This document shows positions 1 to 63,708 of a stretch of 64,000 bases of DNA, one piece after another; position 1 is the stretch's first letter; every line of letters starts with the position of its first letter. Source of the DNA: Eledone cirrhosa (taxonomy: Eukaryota). The notes below the pieces were generated by a model. It was not told the origin of the DNA. It worked only from the letters and a program-made list of their open reading frames with translations, and did not search any database. The stretch is taken from the NCBI GenBank assembly GCA_964016885.1, contig OZ024741.1:281046001-281110000 (forward strand), given 5' to 3'. The position numbers were made by a program, and so were the translations under genes.

Positions 1-956
1 CAGAGGTCTCACTCCCACGCAACATTGCTGTTCTAATGTATGCATCATACAGTCTGCCTTTCATTTTGAGGGAAAAACCTTTTGCAGCTAGCAGTGGTAG
101 TAGCTCCCTGAACTTCTTCCATCCCGTTCTTACTCTGGCTACTGTACTTTCAGAACACCTACCTCTGCTGCTAATTCGGTCACCTAGGTAGCAGAAGCTA
201 TCTACAGTTTCTACCAAGCCCTCTCAGAATTTGGTAGTGTTTATTTCCTGTAGTCATTGGCTGCTGACTGACCCAGTGCAACTGTTATATGTAAAGCCAA
301 CATTCTTAGCTAAACTTCCTGAGATCCCACCACATCTCTTGTGTACCCATAGTTTGCATTTGGGGCAGAGGATGGAATTTCTACCTACACTTTTCCTACA
401 TACTGTTCAAGGCCATTTCCCTGCTGGGATCTGGGTTCTGTTTTCTCTTCTAGTCTTTGTCAGGTTGACTTTGAAAGCCCTTCTTTCCAGGCCCTGCTTC
501 TATGTTTGGAATTTCTTCTCTAGTTCTGCCATAGATTCTGCTATATGTGTAAGATCATCACCGTACAGAAGCTCCCATGTGCATCCTATCTTAAACTCCT
601 CTGTTATAGCCTGCAATATGATAATAAACAGGAGAGGGCTAAGAACAGTGTCCTAGTGGACAACCAACCTGTATGTTAAATGCCTTGTTATAGTCATTGT
701 TAACCTTAACTTTGCTGACTGCTCCCCTATACATGACTTATACAGCCTTCACAAGCCACTCATATACTCCTAGTTTTCTAAGAGCCCACCAGATTATAGC
801 ACAGGGCACTCTATTGAAGGCTTTTTCCAGATCGACAAATGCCAGGTAGAGCGGCTTACTTTTAGCTAGGTACTTTTCCTGTAACAGCCTTACAAGGAAG
901 AAGGCATCAGTGGTGTTTTTGTCTGGCATAAACCCAAACTGCATCTCATCTGTCAC
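1..956 (-). mobile_element. RTE-clade non-LTR retrotransposon, degenerate RT fragment
   Basis: Minus ORF 738-956 reads QFGFMPDKNTTDAFFLVRLLQEKY...LYLAFVDLEKAFNRVP (RT motifs). 1-370 is homologous to the RTE copy at about 52260-52620. Confidence 0.9.
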
Positions 957-1752
957 CTTTAGTAAGTTATTTTTTAGGAACTCCCAGTACTTTTCTATAT
1001 TGAATGTCTCTATCTGTTCTTCTTTACTATCATAGGTGTCAAGTAAGATATCTTTAAAATATGTTACTGGCTGAGAGATCTTTCAGCTTCCAGATCTTTC
1101 TTCTCTATGTTGCCTTTTGTTTCCAAGTTCCTCTAGTTCTGACAATGAGGTCAATATATATATATATATATATATAGCTTTCCCAATCAATCAAACAAAA
1201 TCTAGTTAGCTACTGTAGGTAAACAGCCAGACAGCCACAAAAGAATCATCTCCAACTTCCATGACATTTGCAAGATGTTTACTAACTTCTGATCCTCCCA
1301 TTGGAACAACAAAATATATCTTCTGGCAGCTGTTACAGCTTAGTGTCTATATCTTAGAAGATAGGCTATGGAGAGAGTGCATAGTTTCACTGCTAACGCT
1401 AACGCTTCATAGTCACCTGTGTTAACGTATGTGTGTTTGTATACTTGTCTGTCTGTCTGTATGCAAGGATGGATGCATGCATGTATTTGTATGTATGTCT
1501 ATAATACATGTTCGTGTGTATGCATGCATGCATGTTTACGTATGTATGTATGCATGTGTGTGTATGTATGCATGTAATGTATGTATCATCATCACTGTTT
1601 AAAATCTGTTTTCTATGCTTACATGGGTTAGATAGATTGTTACCCCCTGTGGCTTGACTGGTCAGGTGACCACTCTAACTTTTATGTTCCATTTTTGGTT
1701 TGTTTTCTACAGTGGCTGGTCTTCCTAACATCAACCATGTTACAGTATGTAC

Positions 1753-2748
1753 TGTGTACATTTTATCATGGCACCAGCACTACCATATTATAGGGTGGAT
1801 TGGGTACATTTTATCATGGCACAAACACTATCATCTTATAGGGTCGATTGGGTACATTTTATCATGCCACCAGCACTACCATCTTATAGGGTGGATTGGG
1901 TACATTTTATCATGGCACCAGCACTACCATCTTATAGGGTGGATTGGGTACATTTTATCATGGCACCAGCACTACCATCTTATAGGGTGGATTGGGTACA
2001 TTTTATCATGGCACCAGCACTACCATCTTATAGGGTGGATTGGGTACATTTTATCATGGCACCAGCACTACCATCTTATAGGGTGGATTGGGTACATTTT
2101 ATCATGGCACCAGCACTACCATCTTATAGGGTGGATTGGGTACATTTTATCATGGCACCAGCACTACCATCTTATAGGGTCGATTGGGTACATTTTATCA
2201 TGGCACCAGCACTACCATCTTATAAGGGGGATTGGGTACATTTTATCATGGCACCAGCACTACCATCTTATAGGGTGGATTGGGTACATTTTATCATGGC
2301 ACCAGCACTACCATCTTATAGGGTGGATTGGGTACATTTTATCATGGCACCAGCACTACCATCTTATAGGGTGGATTGGGTACATTTTATCATGGCACCA
2401 GCACTACCATCTTATAGGGTCGATTGGGTACATTTTATCATGGCACCAGCACTACCATCTTATAAGGGGGATTGGGTACATTTTATCATGGCACCAGCAC
2501 TACCATCTTATAGGGTGGATTGGGTACATTTTATCATGGCACCAGCACTACCATCTTATAGAGTGGATTGGGTACATTTTATCATGGCACCAGCACTACC
2601 ATCTTATAGGGTGGATTGGGTACATTTTATCATGGCACCAGCACTACCATCTTATAGGGTGGATTGGGTACATTTTATCATGGCACCAGCACTACCATCT
2701 TATAGGGTGGATTGGGTACATTTTATCATGGCACCAGCAGTACCATTT
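1753..2748. repeat. 48-bp minisatellite, about 21 units, grown from an RTE 3'-UTR subrepeat
   Basis: Unit GGGTACATTTTATCATGGCACCAGCACTACCATCTTATAGGGTGGATT. It explains the 16-aa-periodic ORFs 1700-2767 and 1747-2841 and continues directly from an RTE-tail repeat at about 1585-1750. Confidence 0.95.
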
Positions 2749-2963
2749 GACAGTATTTGGGTGGTAGTTGTATCCTTGGCCAGGTTGGGAAGTTGGTGTT
2801 ATATGAGAGTTGAAGGGAGAGAGCTATATCTTGTTTGCTGAGGAGGAGTGGTCATGTCAGTGTATGACATACATACACACACGTACCAACTCTACATCCC
2901 ACCATGCATCAAGTACTACACTGATTTGTGGTCTTCCTCATCTTTGCACTGCAGACAATATGT

Positions 2964-18751: not shown

Positions 18752-20045
18752 CAGGGTGCGGATGATATTTGTTCGCAAGATTACTGCCTAGGAAAAAATA
18801 ACACAGTAGTTTTATTTTTTAAGATATATTTATCAAACTTGTGTCAGTTTGTCTTCATGACTTGTTCTTTCGATCTCACTCGATAAACCCGCCATTGGCT
18901 TTGATGACGGCCTCAAGGCGGCCTCGGAACCGGCTACAGGGCTTCGTCACTGTCCCCCAACTTAGGCTCCTAAAGGCACTTGTGAACCTGGCCTTCAGAT
19001 CGTATTTCGTATTGCAGCTAGATCTGTTGGTGTCTCGTTCCACTGTGCCCCACACAAAGAAATCGAGGGGGTTGCAGTCAGGCGAGCTGGGAGGCCAGAT
19101 GTCAGGTGAAGTGTAGTCGACGAAGTTCTCTGACAGCCAGGCTTGGGTCTTTCGGCTGGTATGGCAGGGTGCTGAGTCTTGCTGCCACACGTATGGCCTA
19201 CCTGCAGCTACCTGGTCGATCCAGGGCTTTACTACCTCGCTCAGAACCCGGATGTAGCCATCGGTGTTCAGCTTGAGGCTCTCAGGGAAGAAGTGAGGTG
19301 GCATGACGTCACCTTGACTGCTGACGACACCTAAGACCAATGTTGTCACTGGAAACTTTGTCTGCATGACTCTGGGCACGTCTTTGGATGAGACAGCGAG
19401 CCACCTGTTGTTCTGGGAGTTGATCTTCTGGTCTTGGCAGAAGTTTTTCTCGTCGGAGAAAAACCACAGCATGTCTGGCTCCAGTGGGTGTTTCAACTTG
19501 TTGATCAGCTTCTTTGCGTACTTCAGTCGCTTTTCTTGCATCGCCTTTGACAGAAATTGTTCTTTCTTCATCTTGTATGAAACGTAGCGAATGGCTTCAT
19601 GTAACACCAGCCTAATGAGCTTTTCATCCATGCCTTTCTCCCTTGCAATGGCACGCATCGACTTGCTAGGTTCATTGTTGATGACATCCTGAACTTCAGC
19701 GACGAACTCGGGCGTTCTGAAGGCATCAGATTGTCGATCATGTGTTTTCCTCTCTGATGTTGCTTCGTAGTCAAATCCTGAATCTTCCAATTCCTTTCTG
19801 ACCTTTTCCACCATTCTCCTGCTGATGCTGGGAAAGTCTGAAATTTCCTTATTTGTCCTCCCGGCGCGGATTCCAAGAAGAACTCCGTGTCTCTTCCACA
19901 AATTTGGAGGTTCAAAATTATTCATAATCAATTATTCTGAAAATAAATAATGGAAATATTGTCACTGTTTTTATGAAGACAAGAGTGACAACGGAAGTAA
20001 AAAAAATTTGCATAAAATTAGCAGTTGAAAATCGCGAACAAATAT
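18752..20045 (-). mobile_element. Tc1/mariner maT (DD37D) transposon
   Basis: TA|CAGGGTGCGGATGATATTTGTTCGC at 18752. Only the inner 12 bp of the other TIR (GCGAACAAATAT, 20034-20045) remain. Inserted into an RTE-tail repeat. Confidence 0.9.
18876..19931 (-). CDS. DD37D (maT) transposase, 351 aa, uninterrupted
   Basis: WFFSDEKNF, VWQQDSAPCH and WPPSSPDCNPLDF motifs; 37 residues counted between the 2nd and 3rd Asp; N-terminal HTH-like region. Confidence 0.93.
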   Translation of the reverse strand: MIMNNFEPPNLWKRHGVLLGIRAGRTNKEISDFPSISRRMVEKVRKELEDSGFDYEATSERKTHDRQSDAFRTPEFVAEVQDVINNEPSKSMRAIAREKGMDEKLIRLVLHEAIRYVSYKMKKEQFLSKAMQEKRLKYAKKLINKLKHPLEPDMLWFFSDEKNFCQDQKINSQNNRWLAVSSKDVPRVMQTKFPVTTLVLGVVSSQGDVMPPHFFPESLKLNTDGYIRVLSEVVKPWIDQVAAGRPYVWQQDSAPCHTSRKTQAWLSENFVDYTSPDIWPPSSPDCNPLDFFVWGTVERDTNRSSCNTKYDLKARFTSAFRSLSWGTVTKPCSRFRGRLEAVIKANGGFIE

Positions 20046-21794
20046 TGTGTGGACTGAGTGCTTTTTGTTGTGTCACTGACACAGTGGACGGAAATAGAAG
20101 GATGGGGTAGGGTATGTGGGGGTGTATATTGAGTTAAGAGGTGCCTACTGACTAGGTTTGTATGCTATTAGCTATGCTATTCAGATACTAAATATCTATC
20201 AGCTTTTGGAGAGAACCCTGTCTGTCATTAGAAATACGGCAATGAAAGGGTTAATCAAATGCTAGATTAATACAATTTGCTCAAATATTTAATTAATATT
20301 TAAAAAGAAAATTCTATATGTAAATTAAATGGTGAAGCAGTTTTAGAAAGCATTGTTATATTAAAATTAAAAATGATGTAGCAGCTGTGACAGTGATGAA
20401 ATAAAATATAATATTGGGTTAGAAATGATTTAGATGCTGTGACAGTATGTCTGATGAAATAAAATATAGTATTGTGTTAAAAATGTTCAGTTTTAAAAGA
20501 CTTTGATCAGTGAATCGACATAGGATTCCCTATCATGTTAGAAATTGTTGCGTTGGTTAATGATTAAAGAAGCTGCAGGTGAAATCCTGACCCTATGAAC
20601 AAGTTTAAGTTATTGTTGATGTCTCTTGACCAAACAGGAGATAAAATAAAAATGAAAAGACAGCAGCAGAGTCAGTTAGTAGCATCACAGGTTCACCAAT
20701 TTAGCACAAATTCTGCTCCAGTGACACATTCAATGAGAAATAGCAGTAGAGTATAAAACTATAAAGATCATCCTTTTTTTTTTTTTATTACTGTCTAAAA
20801 TTACTGCAGTTGAAGGTAGAAACTATATCTCTCCAAAATGGTTAACTGAATATGCACATGTTTTTTTCTCATTATTTTCTGTTCCTTCCTCTTCTTTATC
20901 TTTGTATTTCATCTTTTATTTCTCATTCTATCTTCTGATGAAAAACTAGTGCCTGAAACATTAAGACTCTTTTCCTATTATTTTAAGCATTAAACTAATA
21001 TATTTCTTCATTGTACTTGGACGTTTGCTTTGTTATTTCTGTTTACTTTTTACACGCACACACAGACACACATGCACACACCACACACACCACATACACA
21101 CACAATTTTTTTATTTTTTTCCATACACATTGTCTGGACTCCTAAGTAATTTTAAACTTGCCTATATATTTAGCATATTCATGAAATTGTGAAAGTGCTC
21201 TGTTCATTGTGGTTTTGATTCTTTGGCTGTTGTTTTCAATGTGACCTTTAACATTAACAGATGTTGTACATATGCAAAAGATAAAGCTGTAAGTTTTCTG
21301 TTGATTCCATGCCAGCTAGCTCATTGTTTTCCACTCATCTACCTCTCTGAAACCAGTACTTATAATATAACTACTAAGCTTTAAGCATAAACATTTACCT
21401 GATATTATAGGTGAGAGATGATAACTAGAAGCTTCTACCAGTTGCTGCTGTACTAGTGACTACCTACCAGCACCATTGTTGTCTACCTGCTTGGTTTATA
21501 GATCATGTTACTGAAAAAAATAGCCAAGATTGAAATTACCTAAATTATCTGTGTATGGGCACATAAATATCTACATTCATGAGTTCTTCAATAGACCATG
21601 AAATAGATTTTGCATAACTCTTTTTTTAATTCTATTTTGTTTTTCAACAGCTGAGGATTTTTACTTGAAATATAAAACCTACATGAATATTTTTTTAAAT
21701 TTGCATATGGTATTAACTAATTTTGTTAAAAGCTTGTAAAATATTACATAAAGGATAATACATGAAATTTTGACTTTTCTTTCTATTCAAATAT

Positions 21795-24240: not shown

Positions 24241-24403
24241 AAAGTGTTTTTATATATATATAAAAACATTCCATCATACTTTTATGTAAGAACTTTTGTT
24301 TAGTTCTGTTCCACATAATCTTATTATTTGGAACAGAACTAAACAAAAGTTCTTACATAAAAGTATGATGGAATGTTTTTATATATATATATAAAAATAC
24401 TTT
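24241..24403. repeat. Fold-back palindrome, arms of about 70 bp
   Basis: ...CATTCCATCATACTTTTATGTAAGAACTTTTGTTTAGTTCTGTTCCA, a short loop, then its exact reverse complement. Confidence 0.92.
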
Positions 24404-25032
24404 ATATATGAAAACACTTTAAAGTTATAACTAAATCCCTCCAAAATCTTGTATTTTCAAAATTATTTAAAAAACAGGCAATGTTTTGCATTAGAAATAT
24501 GGTCATGTAAAGATTAAAAAAGGAAGAACATTGAATAAAGTAGTCATAGATACACTATGCATGAAAAAAATAGATGGGAGGAGGATGGCTGTAATGACTT
24601 TGATCTGCTTGAACAAATCTGACCTGAGACTAAACAGTAACAATAACTCATTTGATGTAATGTATAGTTAGTTCTCATGCAAAAAAAAAAAAAAAAAAGC
24701 TATGAATGATAGGCATCGTCTGCAGGCATCAATATGTGAGTTAAAGAAACATTTATTATTATATATAGAATTTATATATATTTATTATTATTATATAGAA
24801 AGTATATATATATACATATAAGTTAACTTTGTCTTTCATCCTTCAGTCAAGAATATATAGTTTTCTTGTCTGTAAATGAGGTGATTAATCTCATTTATTT
24901 CTTTTCTATTATAAGTTGACCCAACTTATGCAACTTCATATGCAAATGAGATTAATCACTTCATTTGGACAGATGAGAAAACTATATATTCTCGACTGTT
25001 TTCAAGTCCAGCAGTAGCAAGCGGTGGGAGGG

Positions 25033-25076
25033 ACCGTCCTGACGAAGGCCAGTCAAGCCTGAAATGCATAGACGGT
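25033..25076 (+). ncRNA. Minimal type I hammerhead ribozyme (Penelope pLTR-type)
   Basis: ACCGTC-CTGACGA-AGGC cagtcaa GCCT-GAAA-TGCA-TA-GACGGT. Canonical core, palindromic loop III, stem I extendable to 25006-25100. Confidence 0.85.
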
Positions 25077-25219
25077 TGTCCCCCCCTGCTTCTGCTGGAC
25101 ACCACAAGAGGGCGTTAGCCAGAAATACGAAATTTCTATACATATTGTATAAAGCTATGCTTGAAGCAAAATCTTATTTCTTCCCTTATATATATATATA
25201 TTATATTATATTACCCAAG

Positions 25220-25410
25220 GGCAGTGGATTGGCAGTATCGGTAGAGAGTCGGACGCCATGCTTTGACGCATAGAGTTACGGCCCTTGTCATTCTGAGTTC
25301 AAATCCCGCCGAGGTTAACTTTGCCTTTCATCCTTACGGGGTCGATAAAATAAAGTACCAGTAATGAACTGGATAATTGCTGGCCTTGTGCCAAAAGTAG
25401 AAACTATTAT
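25220..25410 (+). mobile_element. Young tRNA-derived SINE
   Basis: Box A TGGCAGTATCGG, box B GAGTTCAAATCC, central CTTTGCCTTTCATCCTTACGGGGTCGATAAAAT; flanked by TATTATATTACCCA direct repeats. Confidence 0.88.
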
Positions 25411-25779
25411 ATTATATTACCCATCTGCATTGTTGAGGCTTCCAAAACGACCTAAAGAAAATATATCTTATTATTCCACAATGCTTCAAGCAAACTTCAA
25501 TACTTTCTTATATTATATTATATTATCATTATCATTGTTTAATGTCCATTTTTCCATGTTTGCATGGCTTGACACATTGTGAAACAAGTTAGAACAACTG
25601 ACCAAGTGTTGCTTGCATTGATCTATATTTTGTTAAAAGATCTGTATTTTGTTAAAAGAAAGTCTTAAATGGAGATGGCATTTTCTGACTGACTTGTGTG
25701 TACTGGGTGGCCTGGATCTCTTGAAAAGCACCTAAGCAATTAAGAGTGATAATCTCCAATTTTCAAAAATGGAAGCAAG

Positions 25780-27030
25780 AGAGATTGCTCCAGTTATAGA
25801 TGGATCTCCTTGTTAAAACTCTCCAGCAAAGTCTATACTGTTTAGCAAAGAGAGATAGGGAGATTGTCAAGTCCAAGTTAGCTGACAAACAGTGTTGTTT
25901 TTACCCTGGATGTTACACAGCTGACCAAATATTCACACTGGGGCAGGTCTTTGAGAAATTGTGAGAGTATTGCAAAGAGGTGTTTGATTGTTTTGTTTAC
26001 CTTGAAAAGGCATATGACCATGTTCCACAAGACCCTTTGTGGAAGGTTCTGCAGGAGTATTGGATCAATAGACAGCTTTTTGTTGCCCTGATATCTCTAC
26101 ATAAATGTCCTAGTATTTGTGTTCAGTTAAATTATGCTAAGTCAAAACTATTCAAAATGGGAATCAGACTCTGCCAAGGGTGCGTACTGTCACCTCTTCT
26201 GTTCATTATTTTCATGAATAGGATTGACATACACTGCTGGGTCAGATGTGGTATCAAGACTGGCAGGTGTAGGATCAATTGGCTGGAATTTGCAGATGAC
26301 ATGGTATTACTTATCAGAAGGTGATCTCTGACATGCACACAAGAGCTTTGCTGCTGAGTGCTGCATGGCTGGAATGAAAATCAGTGTTGTGAAGACTGAG
26401 ACACTTGTCCTCTCAAGAAAACCTGTGCAGTGCACTCTACATGTGAGTGGAGTCACACAGAAGTAGGTGGAGAATTTCAAATATCTCTGGGCCATGTTCA
26501 CATGTGATGGAATACAGGGGGCTGAATTAAGTGCAAGAATTGCAGGAGCTGGTGCAGTAATGCGCCAGCTTCAACATTTGGTCAGCAGAAGAAGGGAGGT
26601 ATCACTATCTTCAAATCGGTATTCATGTCAATCCTTACCTATGATCATCAATCTTGGGTAATGACCGAAAGAATATGATCTTGAATACAAACAAGCGAAA
26701 TAGGGTTCCTCTGAAGAGTCCTTAGAGTAATGTTACTCGACAGAGTGCATAGCTCATAGAGCAGAGAGTTGCTCCTGGTAGAGCCACTACTTCTCCAAAT
26801 TGAGAGATAACTGCTCCATGGTTAGAATGTTTCTGGAAAAAATCGCTGAACAGATTTTATGTGCCAAACCAACTAGCAGGAAACCCAGGGGTAGACCCCA
26901 AGCAAGATGACTGGGTAACATCCATGAGCTCAGCTGGTTTTGCTTGGGGATCCAGTCAGATCATTTGGAGACAGTTGCATCTAACAACATGCTGGAAGGT
27001 GTGCTTAAGGAATAAGTGGGTAAAGAAGAA
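25780..27030 (+). mobile_element. Rex3/Expander-like RTE-clade LINE, degenerate 3' half
   Basis: CFVYLEKAYDHVP, GIRLCQGCVLSPLLF, LEFADD, ENFKYL, LTYDHQSWVMTERI and VEPLLLQIER motifs with stops and frameshifts. Confidence 0.88.
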
Positions 27031-36721: not shown

Positions 36722-37022
36722 AAAAATCATAATCATCACAATACAGGTGATATGAAGGCATATATAATATATTTGTGTATAATAAACACACACAAGTCTT
36801 GTTGGGTTTTCTTAAGCTGGGATCATGTGACAGCTACCTCAGTTGCCATGTGAGAACACCAAGCACTAGTGTTTCAGGGCTTTTATTCATCATCAGTCAC
36901 ATTTACAAACTAAGCAAATAGCTTAAGTAGATTTTTTGCAAATAATACATTTATGGAGATGCTCATTTGCATATAATTCAAGCTTGACAAGTTGGTATTA
37001 ATTAACATAATTCATAATATAA

Positions 37023-43760: not shown

Positions 43761-44061
43761 TATAAAGAAAAAGAGATGAAATCGAAAATGCAACTGGAGT
43801 CTTATTTTTTTTTTTTTAAGTATATATATTTATTTGGTTCCTTTACCGGTTTCGCAGTTCTTCTGCTTTTCAAAAGGTGAGTTGAGATGGAGGGTCTGTG
43901 GTTTTTCTCAGATGTGAGAAAAACCACAGACCCTCCATCTCAACTCACCTTTTGAAAAGCAGAAGAACTGCGAAACCGGTAAAGGAACCAAATAAATATA
44001 TATATTTAAAAAAAAAATAAGACTCCAGTTGCATTTTCGATTTCATCTCTTTTTCTTTATA
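43761..44061. repeat. 300-bp near-perfect palindrome (arms about 150 bp, 4-nt loop) between TA microsatellites
   Basis: Centre TTTTTCTCA-GATG-TGAGAAAAA at 43911-43914. Arms differ only in poly-T length and about one base. Confidence 0.95.
43948..43985 (+). ncRNA. Minimal type I hammerhead, U3-A8 variant (mirror copy 43840-43877 on minus)
   Basis: CCTT-TTGAAAA-GCAG aagaa CTGC-GAAA-CCGG-TA-AAGG. Confidence 0.75.
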
Positions 44062-44681
44062 TATATATATATATATATTCATTTATTATGGCTAAATAGT
44101 GAGTCTTGTTACTCTGGAGTTTCACCTGTGCACTCACAGGGTCATCAGACAAGTTCTTGTCTGAGGATCCCATGGGCTGGGTGCTTTTTGTCATGACACC
44201 TACATGAACACTTTACAGTGTGGACTTGGTGCTTATTGTTGTGGCTTTAGGATGACCACTTTATTGTGTGGATTGGAGACATGTTCAGGGAGTCACTGAT
44301 TGTGGTTGTGGCAATCACTGATAATCGGTGCTGCCACAGCCAGCCACTCACCATGGTGCTATCTAATTTCAACCAATATCTCCACATTTGCGCATTGCCT
44401 CATAAATTCCAACATTTCACCACAAAATACTTTTATCTGTAAACACTACATTTAGTAGCAACATGTTGATGAAACACTCTATTATATCAAACCTTTTATG
44501 TATTCTGATTGTGTTTTATTTTGCTACATGGTGTCATCATATACCATAGTCGAATAAAAGTATAAAAATTATCAGTTTGATTTTCATGTTGGTCTGTCCT
44601 AATTCACCACCTAATTTCTAGAGTACAATGAATGAAATGATTTGTCACAGACTAATAACAAGTTCTTATATTCTATTGCAG

Positions 44682-51567: not shown

Positions 51568-52620
51568 ATCATCATCATCATCATCATCACCGTTTTACGT
51601 CCGTTCTTCCACGCTAGCATGGGTTAGACGGGTTGTCCTGTTGTGGGCAGTGTCTGGTCGGCTGACCATGCCTTGCTCATACAGGAACTGATCTGGCTTG
51701 ATTTCTACAGCTGGATGCCCTTCCTAACACCAACCTCATTTACAGTGAGTGCTGGGTGCTTTTTCGTGGCGCCTACACGTCCACTTTACAGTGTGGGCTG
51801 GGTGCTTTTTTGCCGTGGCACCTCCACGACCACCTTGCGGTGGGGGGGGGGGGGGGGGCATATTGTTTATATGCTTCAGCATGTACCCATGGGAGGTCGG
51901 GTACCCTGTATTACTGCGTGACGCCAGAAGTCACGGTCGTGTGTCATTGACTTTGAGAGGTGTAGTTGGGTAAGGTCGGCTTTTATCACCTCATCCCAAG
52001 TCATCTTGGGTCTCCCCACTCCGCGGTTTCCATCAACTTCTAGTGCTCTGCACCTTTTTATGCAGCTGTCATCCTTCATACGCATCACATGTCCATACCA
52101 GCGTAACCGCCTCTCCTGCACGCAGCATTTGATTCCTCTTATGCTCAGTCTCTCTCTCAATTCATTTATGCTTTGTCGTTCACGTATATTACTGTTACAC
52201 ATCCATCGGAGCATGCAGGCTTCGTTTCTCTCTAATCTACGTAAGTCTTCCACCTTCAGCGCCCAGGTCTCACTACCATGCAACATCGCTGTTCGGATAC
52301 ACGCATCATACAGTCTGCCTTTCATTCTGAGGGAGAAGCCTTTTGCAGCTAGCAGTGGTAGTAGTTCCCTAAACTTCTTCCATCCCGTTCTTACCCTAGT
52401 TATTGTACTTTCTGAGCACCCACCTCCGTTGCTAATTCGGTCACCTAGGTAGCAGAAGCTGTCTACTGTTTCTACAGGGCCCTCCCAGAGATTGGTGGTA
52501 CTTGTTTCCTGTGGCTGTTTGCTTGCTGTTTCAGCACAGCTGCTGCATGTGAATCCTACATTCTTAATTAAGCTTCCTGAGATCCCGCTACATCTCTTGT
52601 GTACCCATTGTTTGCATTTG
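51568..52620 (-). mobile_element. Young 5'-truncated RTE LINE (ORF C-terminus, 3' UTR, (GAT)n tail)
   Basis: KGRLYDACIRTAMLHGSETW...RRLRWYGHVMRM...GRPKMTWDEVI. Its 3' UTR matches the many short dispersed repeats in the window. Confidence 0.93.
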
Positions 52621-52782
52621 TATATGACAAATAAAGGACATTAGAAGAAATCCCATATTTATGAACATACACTATACAATTACCGATTTCCCAACCACTC
52701 CATTTACCCCCCCCCCCCCAATTCCAACCCCCTCCCTTTATTATTTAGGACCTGAGAGTATATGTCTTCTATATTATCATCA

Positions 52783-56243: not shown

Positions 56244-56543
56244 AGTCAGTTATTAGTGACATAGTTTTAGTTGTTTATTGCTTTATTTGCAGATTTTAAT
56301 TAATTTAGGCCAAGATATGGTGATGTGGCTAAGAAGTTTGGTTTTCAGTCATGTCGTTTTGAGTTCATTCCCACTGCATAGCATTGGTGTGCTGTGGGCA
56401 AATATTTTCTACTACAGCCTTGGGTTAACTGATACCTTGTGAATGACATTTGGTAAATGGAAGCTGCAGATGCACATTATATATATATATATATATATAT
56501 GAAAAAGAACACAAGAGCGTCTACAACATCAAAAGATTTTTAT

Positions 56544-56592
56544 TGGCTTACAATGTTTCTTCCTTACGTAACCGTAGGATTCGTCAGAGCTA
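56544..56592 (-). ncRNA. Type I hammerhead motif
   Basis: Minus: GCT-CTGACGA-a TCCTACG gtta CGTAaGGA a-GAAA-CATTG-TA-AGC, then AATAAA. Related to the 60144 motif. Confidence 0.7.
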
Positions 56593-63653: not shown

Positions 63654-63708
63654 ACTGCTATATATATTTCGGTGACAGCCATCTTTGGCTGTGACCTCTT
63701 CAGGCAGT
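63654..63708 (-). ncRNA. Minimal type I hammerhead, canonical core
   Basis: Minus: ACTGC-CTGAAGA-GGTcACAGCCA aaga TGGCTGTcACC-GAAA-TATATA-TA-GCAGT, then AATAAA. Confidence 0.85.

What the first reader, a model, noticed from the sequence alone, without database searches (positions are those of the whole stretch)
24844..25130. Highly structured 290-nt module: long hairpin plus hammerhead with extended stem I
Seen: imperfect arms of about 54 bp (24844-24896 and 24944-24998) with an inner hairpin ATAAGTTG-acc-CAACTTAT. This is followed by a canonical HHR whose stem I extends through GGGAGGG/CCCCCCC and GTCCAGCAG/CTGCTGGAC (25006-25100). No ORF; flanked by TA-rich tracts. Inference: a solo pLTR or retrozyme-like monomer that could form a rod-like or circular RNA.
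Basis: partly seen in the sequence, partly recalled or inferred. Interest (0 to 1): 0.7.

Follow-up and report, generated by a model that had tools for sequence, protein, structure and literature searches.

The report
Solo retrozyme copy with fold-back end
This is one lone, partly deleted copy of an abundant ~320-base repeat that carries a hammerhead (self-cutting RNA) motif and is likely a known kind of animal jumping element, a retrozyme; its eye-catching long hairpin is likely an accident of how this copy was inserted, not a working RNA structure.

Summary
The hairpin (24844-24998) and a type I hammerhead (core 25039-25070, predicted cut after A25070) are real. Public contigs and reads laid on the locus show a high-copy family: 3065 and 3249 contigs in two runs of one sample. 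In other copies, the sequence upstream of 24896 resembles 25146-25175, so the unit closes head-to-tail. The period is 279 nt here, about 322 nt with a roughly 43-nt piece this copy lacks. Hammerhead helices and core show no majority change, and compensatory variants occur. This fits a non-LTR retrozyme. The 5' arm is an inverted duplicate of 24944-24998 and is not part of the unit. The arms differ by 4 transitions (3 at CpG sites) and one indel, with no compensatory change, and both strands fold equally well. Inverted 5'-truncated copies are a known Penelope-like (PLE) insertion footprint. Helix III is a 1-2 bp palindrome (newt/axolotl type), so a solo copy should cleave poorly and cannot release a circle. 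Verdict: new member of a known kind, probably inactive. The modest interest is the PLE-style inversion, exactly in register with the unit's own small hairpin. Expression and cleavage are untested; the host (probably an octopus) is recalled, not shown.

The parts
24751..24821 (.). Left TA-rich tract, the likely insertion target; no target-site duplication can be read in it
24822..24843 (+). Isolated 22-nt internal piece of the local SINE abutting the inverted arm (21 of 22 identical to four SINE copies in the window); inferred junction filler
24844..24896 (-). Inverted duplicate of 24944-24998, specific to this copy; shares 2 nt (TT, 24895-24896) with the start of the unit
24895..25182 (+). One retrozyme unit (period 279 nt here) plus a 9-nt terminal repeat (24895-24903 = 25174-25182); GC 0.416
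24910..24930 (+). Small hairpin native to the unit; its centre (24920) is exactly the centre of the outer fold-back
24940..24947 (+). ATGCAAAT, an octamer-like motif (label recalled) in one of the two deepest-covered bins of the family; lead for an snRNA-type internal promoter, at chance frequency in the window
24944..24998 (+). Right arm: native unit sequence that folds into two short hairpins (24943-24967, 24969-24999) when the inverted copy is absent
25006..25100 (+). Type I hammerhead with extended stem I; core 25039-25045 and 25061-25064; helix II 25046-25049/25057-25060; palindromic helix III 25064-25069; predicted cut after A25070
25120..25125 (+). Site where other copies carry about 47 nt in place of 4 nt (net loss of about 43 nt in this copy)
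   Evidence: tables 2, 5, 7
25183..25217 (.). Right TA-rich tract, followed by an independent SINE insertion

Best explanation
This is a solo, internally deleted copy of a high-copy ~320-nt hammerhead-bearing repeat, likely a non-LTR retrozyme, with an inverted duplicate of 53 nt of its own sequence at its 5' end that likely arose during insertion. Family life cycle, inferred from the published model: tandem copies are transcribed, paired hammerheads cut out monomers, these are ligated to circles, and a Penelope-like RT/endonuclease copies them into TA-rich DNA. For this copy (inferred): reverse transcription ran just over one unit, from about 25182 to 24895. The cDNA end then folded back, probably on the unit's own hairpin at 24910-24930 with a 2-nt microhomology, and copied 24944-24998. 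It picked up 22 nt of SINE sequence before joining the target. Since then the arms have decayed neutrally. The copy is probably dead on arrival: it has one hammerhead with a dimer-dependent helix III and lacks about 43 nt.
For: SHOWN. High copy number: 3065 (X1) and 3249 (X3) contigs and 1855 reads (X5) were laid on 511 nt, some of them on the TA flank. Closed unit: of 21 loose-end rows shown (629 in all), those before 24899 (X1, 18 contigs) and 24895 (X5, 94 reads) resemble 25146-25175; 2 of 12 shown joint rows link 25146 to 24896; the window has the matching 9-nt repeat at shift 279. Missing piece: loose ends behind 25120 occur in all 4 runs (70, 62 and 1 contigs; 283 reads). Selection on the hammerhead: of 40 variant rows shown (86 in all), 14 are majority differences within the unit in X1, and none lies in the core or helices I-II. 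G25048A and C25058T, the two sides of one helix II pair, occur in similar numbers of contigs (31/33 in X1, 37/28 in X3). Two loose-end consensuses, read together, give double-sided changes at 4 of 10 helix I/II pairs. Neutral hairpin: there is no compensatory change between the arms. The left arm keeps the family's C at the 24960 and 24974 equivalents, while the right arm keeps the family's C at 24993. 3 of 4 substitutions fall in 2 inferred CpGs (p about 7e-4, post hoc). The plus strand folds at -129.0 and the minus at -127.8. An inversion with a 41-nt spacer in another copy (25008/25049) appears in X1 and X3. ESTABLISHED. Retrozyme features and dimer dependence (PMC7229834; PMC4209133). Inverted 5'-truncated copies, and (TA)n targeting by the Naiad clade, in PLEs (PMC8557442). 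PLE origin of animal retrozymes (bioRxiv 2026.07.22.740005).
Against: No contig shows two complete hammerheads in tandem; a closed junction fits tandem arrays or permuted monomers. 608 loose-end rows and 46 variant rows were not shown, so some copies may run into a PLE ORF. Organism A held only 42-46% of the sampled words, and no listed piece spans the locus, so its majority letters may reflect a sister species or subfamily. The low depth on the left arm (3-5% of the right arm) is not a clean test, because records can be placed on either arm. The subfamily covariation joins two consensuses that overlap by only 3 letters. The second has a median loose length of 9 and carries core changes (25061 G>A, 25066 G>A) that would inactivate it. 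Helix II starts with A-U instead of the usual G10.1-C11.1. My DNA fold of the cDNA end showed the inner hairpin but no pairing of the 3' end at 24944. No partner PLE was found, and there are no RNA or cleavage data.
Confidence: 0.8

Rival explanations
1. Solo terminal repeat (pLTR) of an autonomous Penelope-like element, 5'-truncated, with the usual inverted 5' copy.
For: Inverted 5' copies and TA targets are PLE traits. PLE-type minimal hammerheads occur elsewhere in the window. The AUGCAU helix III also occurs in PLE-type motifs in metagenome loci: 4 of 14 relaxed hits (two near-identical pairs) sit in one arm of a long inverted repeat.
Against: The shown junctions upstream of the unit return to its own 3' end. 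The hammerhead has canonical 6/4-bp helices with no unpaired base at the foot of helix II. No long ORF overlaps the element, and none of 35 window ORFs scanned hit a GIY-YIG family.
Confidence: 0.1
2. The long hairpin is a selected RNA structure: a rod-like circular RNA or a Dicer substrate giving small RNAs against the family.
For: z = -12 for the module and z = -14.6 for the hairpin; 3 of 4 substitutions give G-U pairs on the plus strand; the hairpin does not disturb the hammerhead fold (mean pairing probability 0.963 with and without it).
Against: No compensatory change; the substitutions follow a CpG-decay pattern; both strands fold equally; the arm is not part of the family unit; there is only one cleavage site. 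Long fold-backs recur in this window (24247-24395 and 43761-44061).
Confidence: 0.05
3. Same element, but the inversion came from twin priming on a multimeric or circular template, or from later DNA break repair, rather than from cDNA fold-back. This is a sub-rival within the best explanation.
For: On a tandem template an upstream segment looks like a downstream duplicate. The left junction shows imperfect likeness to the SINE's continuation. The 13+13-nt spacer around the inner hairpin is unpaired.
Against: It needs a jump of about 220 nt between the two primed ends. The left flank's end is not complementary to 24999-25005. It does not explain the exact symmetry about 24920.
Confidence: 0.3
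4. Two unrelated neighbours: a MITE-like palindrome next to an orphan hammerhead.
For: Other stand-alone fold-backs with TA flanks exist in the window.
Against: Single contigs run from the right arm through the hammerhead (e.g. 24928-25120 and 24942-25084, table 8), so both belong to one unit.
Confidence: 0.03

Closest known systems
Metazoan non-LTR retrozymes (Cervera and de la Pena 2020, PMC7229834: coral, mussel, axolotl Rtz_331; newt satellite 2)
   Same: Non-coding unit of 170-400 nt (about 322 here), GC under 45-50% (0.416), one canonical type I hammerhead, thousands of copies, head-to-tail closure; helix III of 1 bp plus a palindromic tetraloop as in HHR_Amex1.
   Different: This copy is solo, lacks about 43 nt and has a 5' inverted duplicate ('inverted' occurs 0 times in that paper's main text). 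It has an A-U pair at the foot of helix II. Octopus and cephalopod occur 0 times in the main text; its supplement could not be read.
Penelope-like element pLTRs with minimal hammerheads (PMC4209133; PMC8557442)
   Same: Type I hammerhead with palindromic helix III; inverted 5'-truncated copy; TA-rich target without a readable TSD.
   Different: No ORF; closed unit; canonical rather than minimal hammerhead; no 30-40 bp tail identified.
Solo monomer derivatives of non-LTR retrozymes (bioRxiv 10.64898/2026.07.22.740005)
   Same: Dispersed single units, which the authors regard as possibly non-transposing offspring of tandem elements; PLE-derived.
   Different: That study covers 35 species with no mollusc (0 occurrences of the stem 'mollus') and describes no inverted ends.

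Membership tests
Non-LTR retrozyme | Canonical type I hammerhead (helix I 6 bp, helix II 4 bp, short palindromic helix III, intact core) | tested here: met
   definition. Deviation: A10.1-U11.1.
Non-LTR retrozyme | Non-coding unit of 170-400 nt with low GC | tested here: met
   279 nt plus about 43 nt; GC 0.416; no ATG ORF over 69 aa
Non-LTR retrozyme | High copy number | tested here: met
   More than 3000 contigs in each of two runs of one sample of organism A; depth is not a copy count
Non-LTR retrozyme | Tandem head-to-tail organisation in the family | tested here: inconclusive
   End-to-start junctions seen in X1, X3 and X5, but no record with two full hammerheads; no tandem copy in the window
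Non-LTR retrozyme (active, two or more hammerheads) | [quoted passage not shown] | tested here: not met
   One unit, one hammerhead. This copy is a solo derivative, not an active element.
Non-LTR retrozyme | No LTR, PBS or PPT | tested here: inconclusive
   The only terminal direct repeat found is 9 nt, at shift 279; PBS and PPT were not scanned for
Non-LTR retrozyme | Expression as linear and circular RNA; self-cleavage | not testable with these tools
   Needs RNA data or an assay
PLE pLTR | Flanks an RT/GIY-YIG ORF in full-length copies | tested here: inconclusive
   Shown junctions return to the unit (21 of 629 loose-end rows seen); no genome held
PLE pLTR | Minimal hammerhead (long helix II, short helix I, unpaired base at the foot of helix II) | tested here: not met
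PLE insertion footprint | Inverted 5'-truncated copy adjacent to the 5' end; TA-rich target | tested here: met
   description
miRNA or hairpin-RNA precursor | Family match or compensatory conservation of the stem | tested here: not met
   Best Rfam score 40.9 bits against a cut-off of 171; no compensatory change

The most novel reading that the evidence does not exclude
A previously undescribed, very abundant cephalopod retrozyme family whose insertions carry the Penelope-type inverted 5' end, formed by the cDNA folding back on the element's own hairpins. Its thousands of copies would be direct footprint evidence that PLE machinery mobilises retrozymes, and a natural dataset for the unsolved origin of PLE inverted ends. 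It may also carry an snRNA-type internal promoter, like newt satellite 2.
Probability: 0.3. Interest if true: 0.55.

Novelty: new member of a known kind. Interest (0 to 1): 0.3.

Why it matters
The locus itself is probably a dead repeat copy, and the striking folding energy is an insertion artefact. The family matters modestly. It would extend retrozymes to a lineage (probably cephalopods) in which my searches found no report. The link between retrozymes and PLEs rests so far on co-occurrence and sequence likeness; a PLE-type inverted end on a retrozyme insertion is evidence of a mechanistic kind. Craig et al. list the formation of tandem/inverted PLE structures as unresolved, and breakpoint mapping in this family could test a fold-back model with public data alone.

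Tried and rejected
No own genome is held, so copies could not be listed. No RNA holder was listed; this is no evidence on expression. Organism B gave 2 laid contigs, one at depth 3, and was not used as evidence. Three of the opposite-strand joints (24851/25017, 24871/24979, 24896/24966) involve the left arm and can be placement artefacts, so they were dropped; 24913/25001 has unclear geometry and was also dropped. The depth peak at 24777-24830 is TA microsatellite and was ignored. The family-specific pattern found 0 matches in metagenome contigs. Looser patterns gave 11 viral and 77 metagenome loci: 1 of 88 passed the strict descriptor, 14 of 88 the relaxed one, and none resembled the unit beyond E = 0.04. 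Rfam hammerhead models did not hit. ARAGORN found 0 tRNAs. Three look-ups of earlier findings returned nothing. A homolog search with a neighbouring LINE fragment did not name the host: best identities were 59-67% to unnamed proteins, and the named hits were Hydractinia, Branchiostoma and one Salmonella-labelled record. The octamer-like motif is at chance level in the window (7 against 7.1 expected). The DNA fold of the cDNA end did not reproduce the fold-back pairing. The supplement of PMC7229834 was too large to read and those of the bioRxiv preprint are closed; either could list cephalopod retrozymes.

Full report
Setting. The window is AT-rich animal DNA (GC 0.29-0.43 per 2 kb), full of microsatellites, SINE copies and LINE or Tc1 fragments. 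No assembly is held. I recognise the SINE as the common octopus type from memory only; the homolog search did not name the host.

Observation. The arms, inner hairpin and hammerhead are present at the stated coordinates. The module folds at -129 kcal/mol, z = -12. The hairpin alone gives -74.4 (z = -14.6) and the hammerhead domain -47.7 (z about -5). A strict type I descriptor found 2 sites in the window, this one and 63703 on the minus strand, against 1 site in 30 shuffled windows. Helices I and II form with mean probability 0.963 with or without the upstream arm; helix III does not form in a monomer. Helix III is AUGCAU, one pair plus a palindromic tetraloop, and is predicted to form a 6-bp self-duplex of -4.7 kcal/mol. 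This is the architecture that PMC4209133 calls the canonical metazoan hammerhead and says needs a dimer (text parts 1-2 of 4 read). The axolotl equivalent cleaved 6% in 1 h as a monomer (PMC7229834, parts 2-4 of 6 read plus passages).

The family. Four of 7 listed runs were laid on 24705-25215 at 80% likeness; X1 and X3 are one sample. 3065 and 3249 contigs and 1855 reads were laid, some on the TA flank. Depth is high from about 24896 to 25185. Three results define the unit. First, loose ends before 24899 (18 contigs, X1) and before 24895 (94 reads, X5), and two X3 joints 25146 to 24896, show that the 3' end precedes the 5' start in other copies; the window has the matching 9-nt repeat at shift 279. 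Second, loose ends behind 25120 (all 4 runs) and before 25125 (X1, X3) overlap to give about 47 nt where this copy has 4, so the full unit is about 322 nt. Third, single contigs run from the right arm through the hammerhead. I saw 21 of 629 loose-end rows, 40 of 86 variant rows and 12 of 13 between-letter rows, and no record with two hammerheads.

Selection falls on the ribozyme, not the rod. Of the 40 variant rows, 14 are majority differences within the unit in X1; none touches the core or helices I-II. Core changes at 25039 and 25042 are about 0.1% of X1 depth, although in X5 the 25039 change is in 102 of 382 plus-direction reads from 3 starts. The majority T at 25086 restores an A-U pair in the stem I extension, while the majority C at 25016 removes one. 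Both sides of the pair 25048-25058 vary together in contig counts (31/33 and 37/28). Two loose-end consensuses imply a subfamily with double-sided changes at three helix II pairs and one helix I pair. Reading them together is my inference, and one carries inactivating core changes. By contrast, the two long arms differ by 4 transitions and a 2-nt indel, with no compensation. Each arm keeps the family letter where the other has lost it (24960 and 24974 against 24993). 3 of the 4 changes lie in two inferred CpGs (p about 7e-4, post hoc), and both strands fold alike (-129.0 and -127.8). Without the left arm the unit folds as a branched structure, linear (-86.3) or circular (-80.9), and the right arm becomes two short hairpins.

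How the hairpin arose (inferred). PMC8557442 (12 passages read) states that PLE insertions often carry an inverted 5'-truncated copy next to the 5' end, that Naiads favour (TA)n, and that the mechanism is undefined. Here the innermost pair of the fold-back (24896/24944) is centred exactly on the unit's own hairpin at 24920. The junction shares 2 nt, and the copied segment spans the next two short hairpins. I estimate by reasoning, not by a call, that exact register would arise by chance about once in 30-90; it is one post hoc case. The DNA fold did not show the 3' end pairing there, so twin priming or repair remain open. A second copy shows an inversion with a 41-nt spacer (25008/25049; 2 contigs in X1, 1 in X3). 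A 22-nt SINE piece, 21 of 22 identical to four SINE copies and lacking the SINE's flanks on both sides, sits at the left junction; this suggests a template jump.

Comparison with what is known. It works like a non-LTR retrozyme and meets the structural criteria that I could test. It fails the criterion for an active locus (two hammerheads; bioRxiv 2026.07.22.740005, parts 1-3 of 5 read), so it is a solo derivative. It fails the minimal-hammerhead criterion for a pLTR. Searches for 'retrozyme' with 'octopus' (3 papers hold both, 2 listed), 'hammerhead ribozyme' with 'cephalopod' (4 papers, 2 listed) and one search showed no title or abstract start on a cephalopod retrozyme; I saw PMC10886601 and PMC11662667 only as listings. 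The library omits most subscription journals, and the relevant supplements were unreadable. An snRNA-type promoter in newt satellite 2 is cited in PMC2220036 (2 passages). The octamer label for 24940-24947 is recalled, and the motif is at chance frequency in the window, although its bin is one of the two deepest in the family.

Verdict. A real hammerhead in a real, abundant repeat family; the long hairpin is specific to this copy and neutral. New member of a known kind; interest 0.3. The most novel reading, a PLE-type fold-back footprint on a cephalopod retrozyme family, has probability 0.3 and interest 0.55 if true.

Noticed in passing
window 63659-63703 (-): PLE-type minimal hammerhead with a long helix II and a TA-repeat helix III; passes the strict descriptor.
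   Followed up: partly
window 44109-44148 (-) and 43761-44061: Hammerhead with a mismatch at the foot of helix II, close to a near-perfect fold-back with arms of about 160 bp (I1 and I3); a second possible PLE-type inverted end.
   Followed up: partly
window 24247-24395: 73-bp fold-back, 97% complementary, 3-nt loop, TA-rich ends, 450 nt upstream of the finding; origin unknown.
   Followed up: no
window 25218-25404: SINE copy with a perfect 19-bp target-site duplication (25199-25217 = 25405-25423), inserted just right of the retrozyme.
   Followed up: partly
window 56543-56587 (-), 20935-20966 (+), 36867-36896 (-): Hammerhead-like CUGANGA...GAAA motifs that failed both descriptors; possibly decayed PLE ends.
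   Followed up: partly
window 18876-19931 (-): Open 351-aa Tc1/mariner-like transposase frame (weak HTH_Tnp_Tc3_2 and DDE_3 hits below cut-off).
   Followed up: no
window 25965-26324 (+), 738-1082 (-), 51876-52640 (-): LINE reverse-transcriptase fragments (RVT_1 hits for the first two; the third has RVT_1/PHD-bearing homologs).
   Followed up: partly
L016/L075 228-700 and L026/L027 346-467 / 977-1101 (matched-strand coordinates): Unrelated metagenome loci in which a PLE-type hammerhead with the same AUGCAU helix III lies in one arm of a long inverted repeat.
   Followed up: partly
window 25143 (run X5): In another copy the unit is preceded by a sequence that looks like a Helitron 3' end (label recalled); 100 reads.
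   Followed up: no
window 1638-2897: 48-nt tandem array with open frames in two phases, related to a dispersed repeat elsewhere in the window.
   Followed up: no
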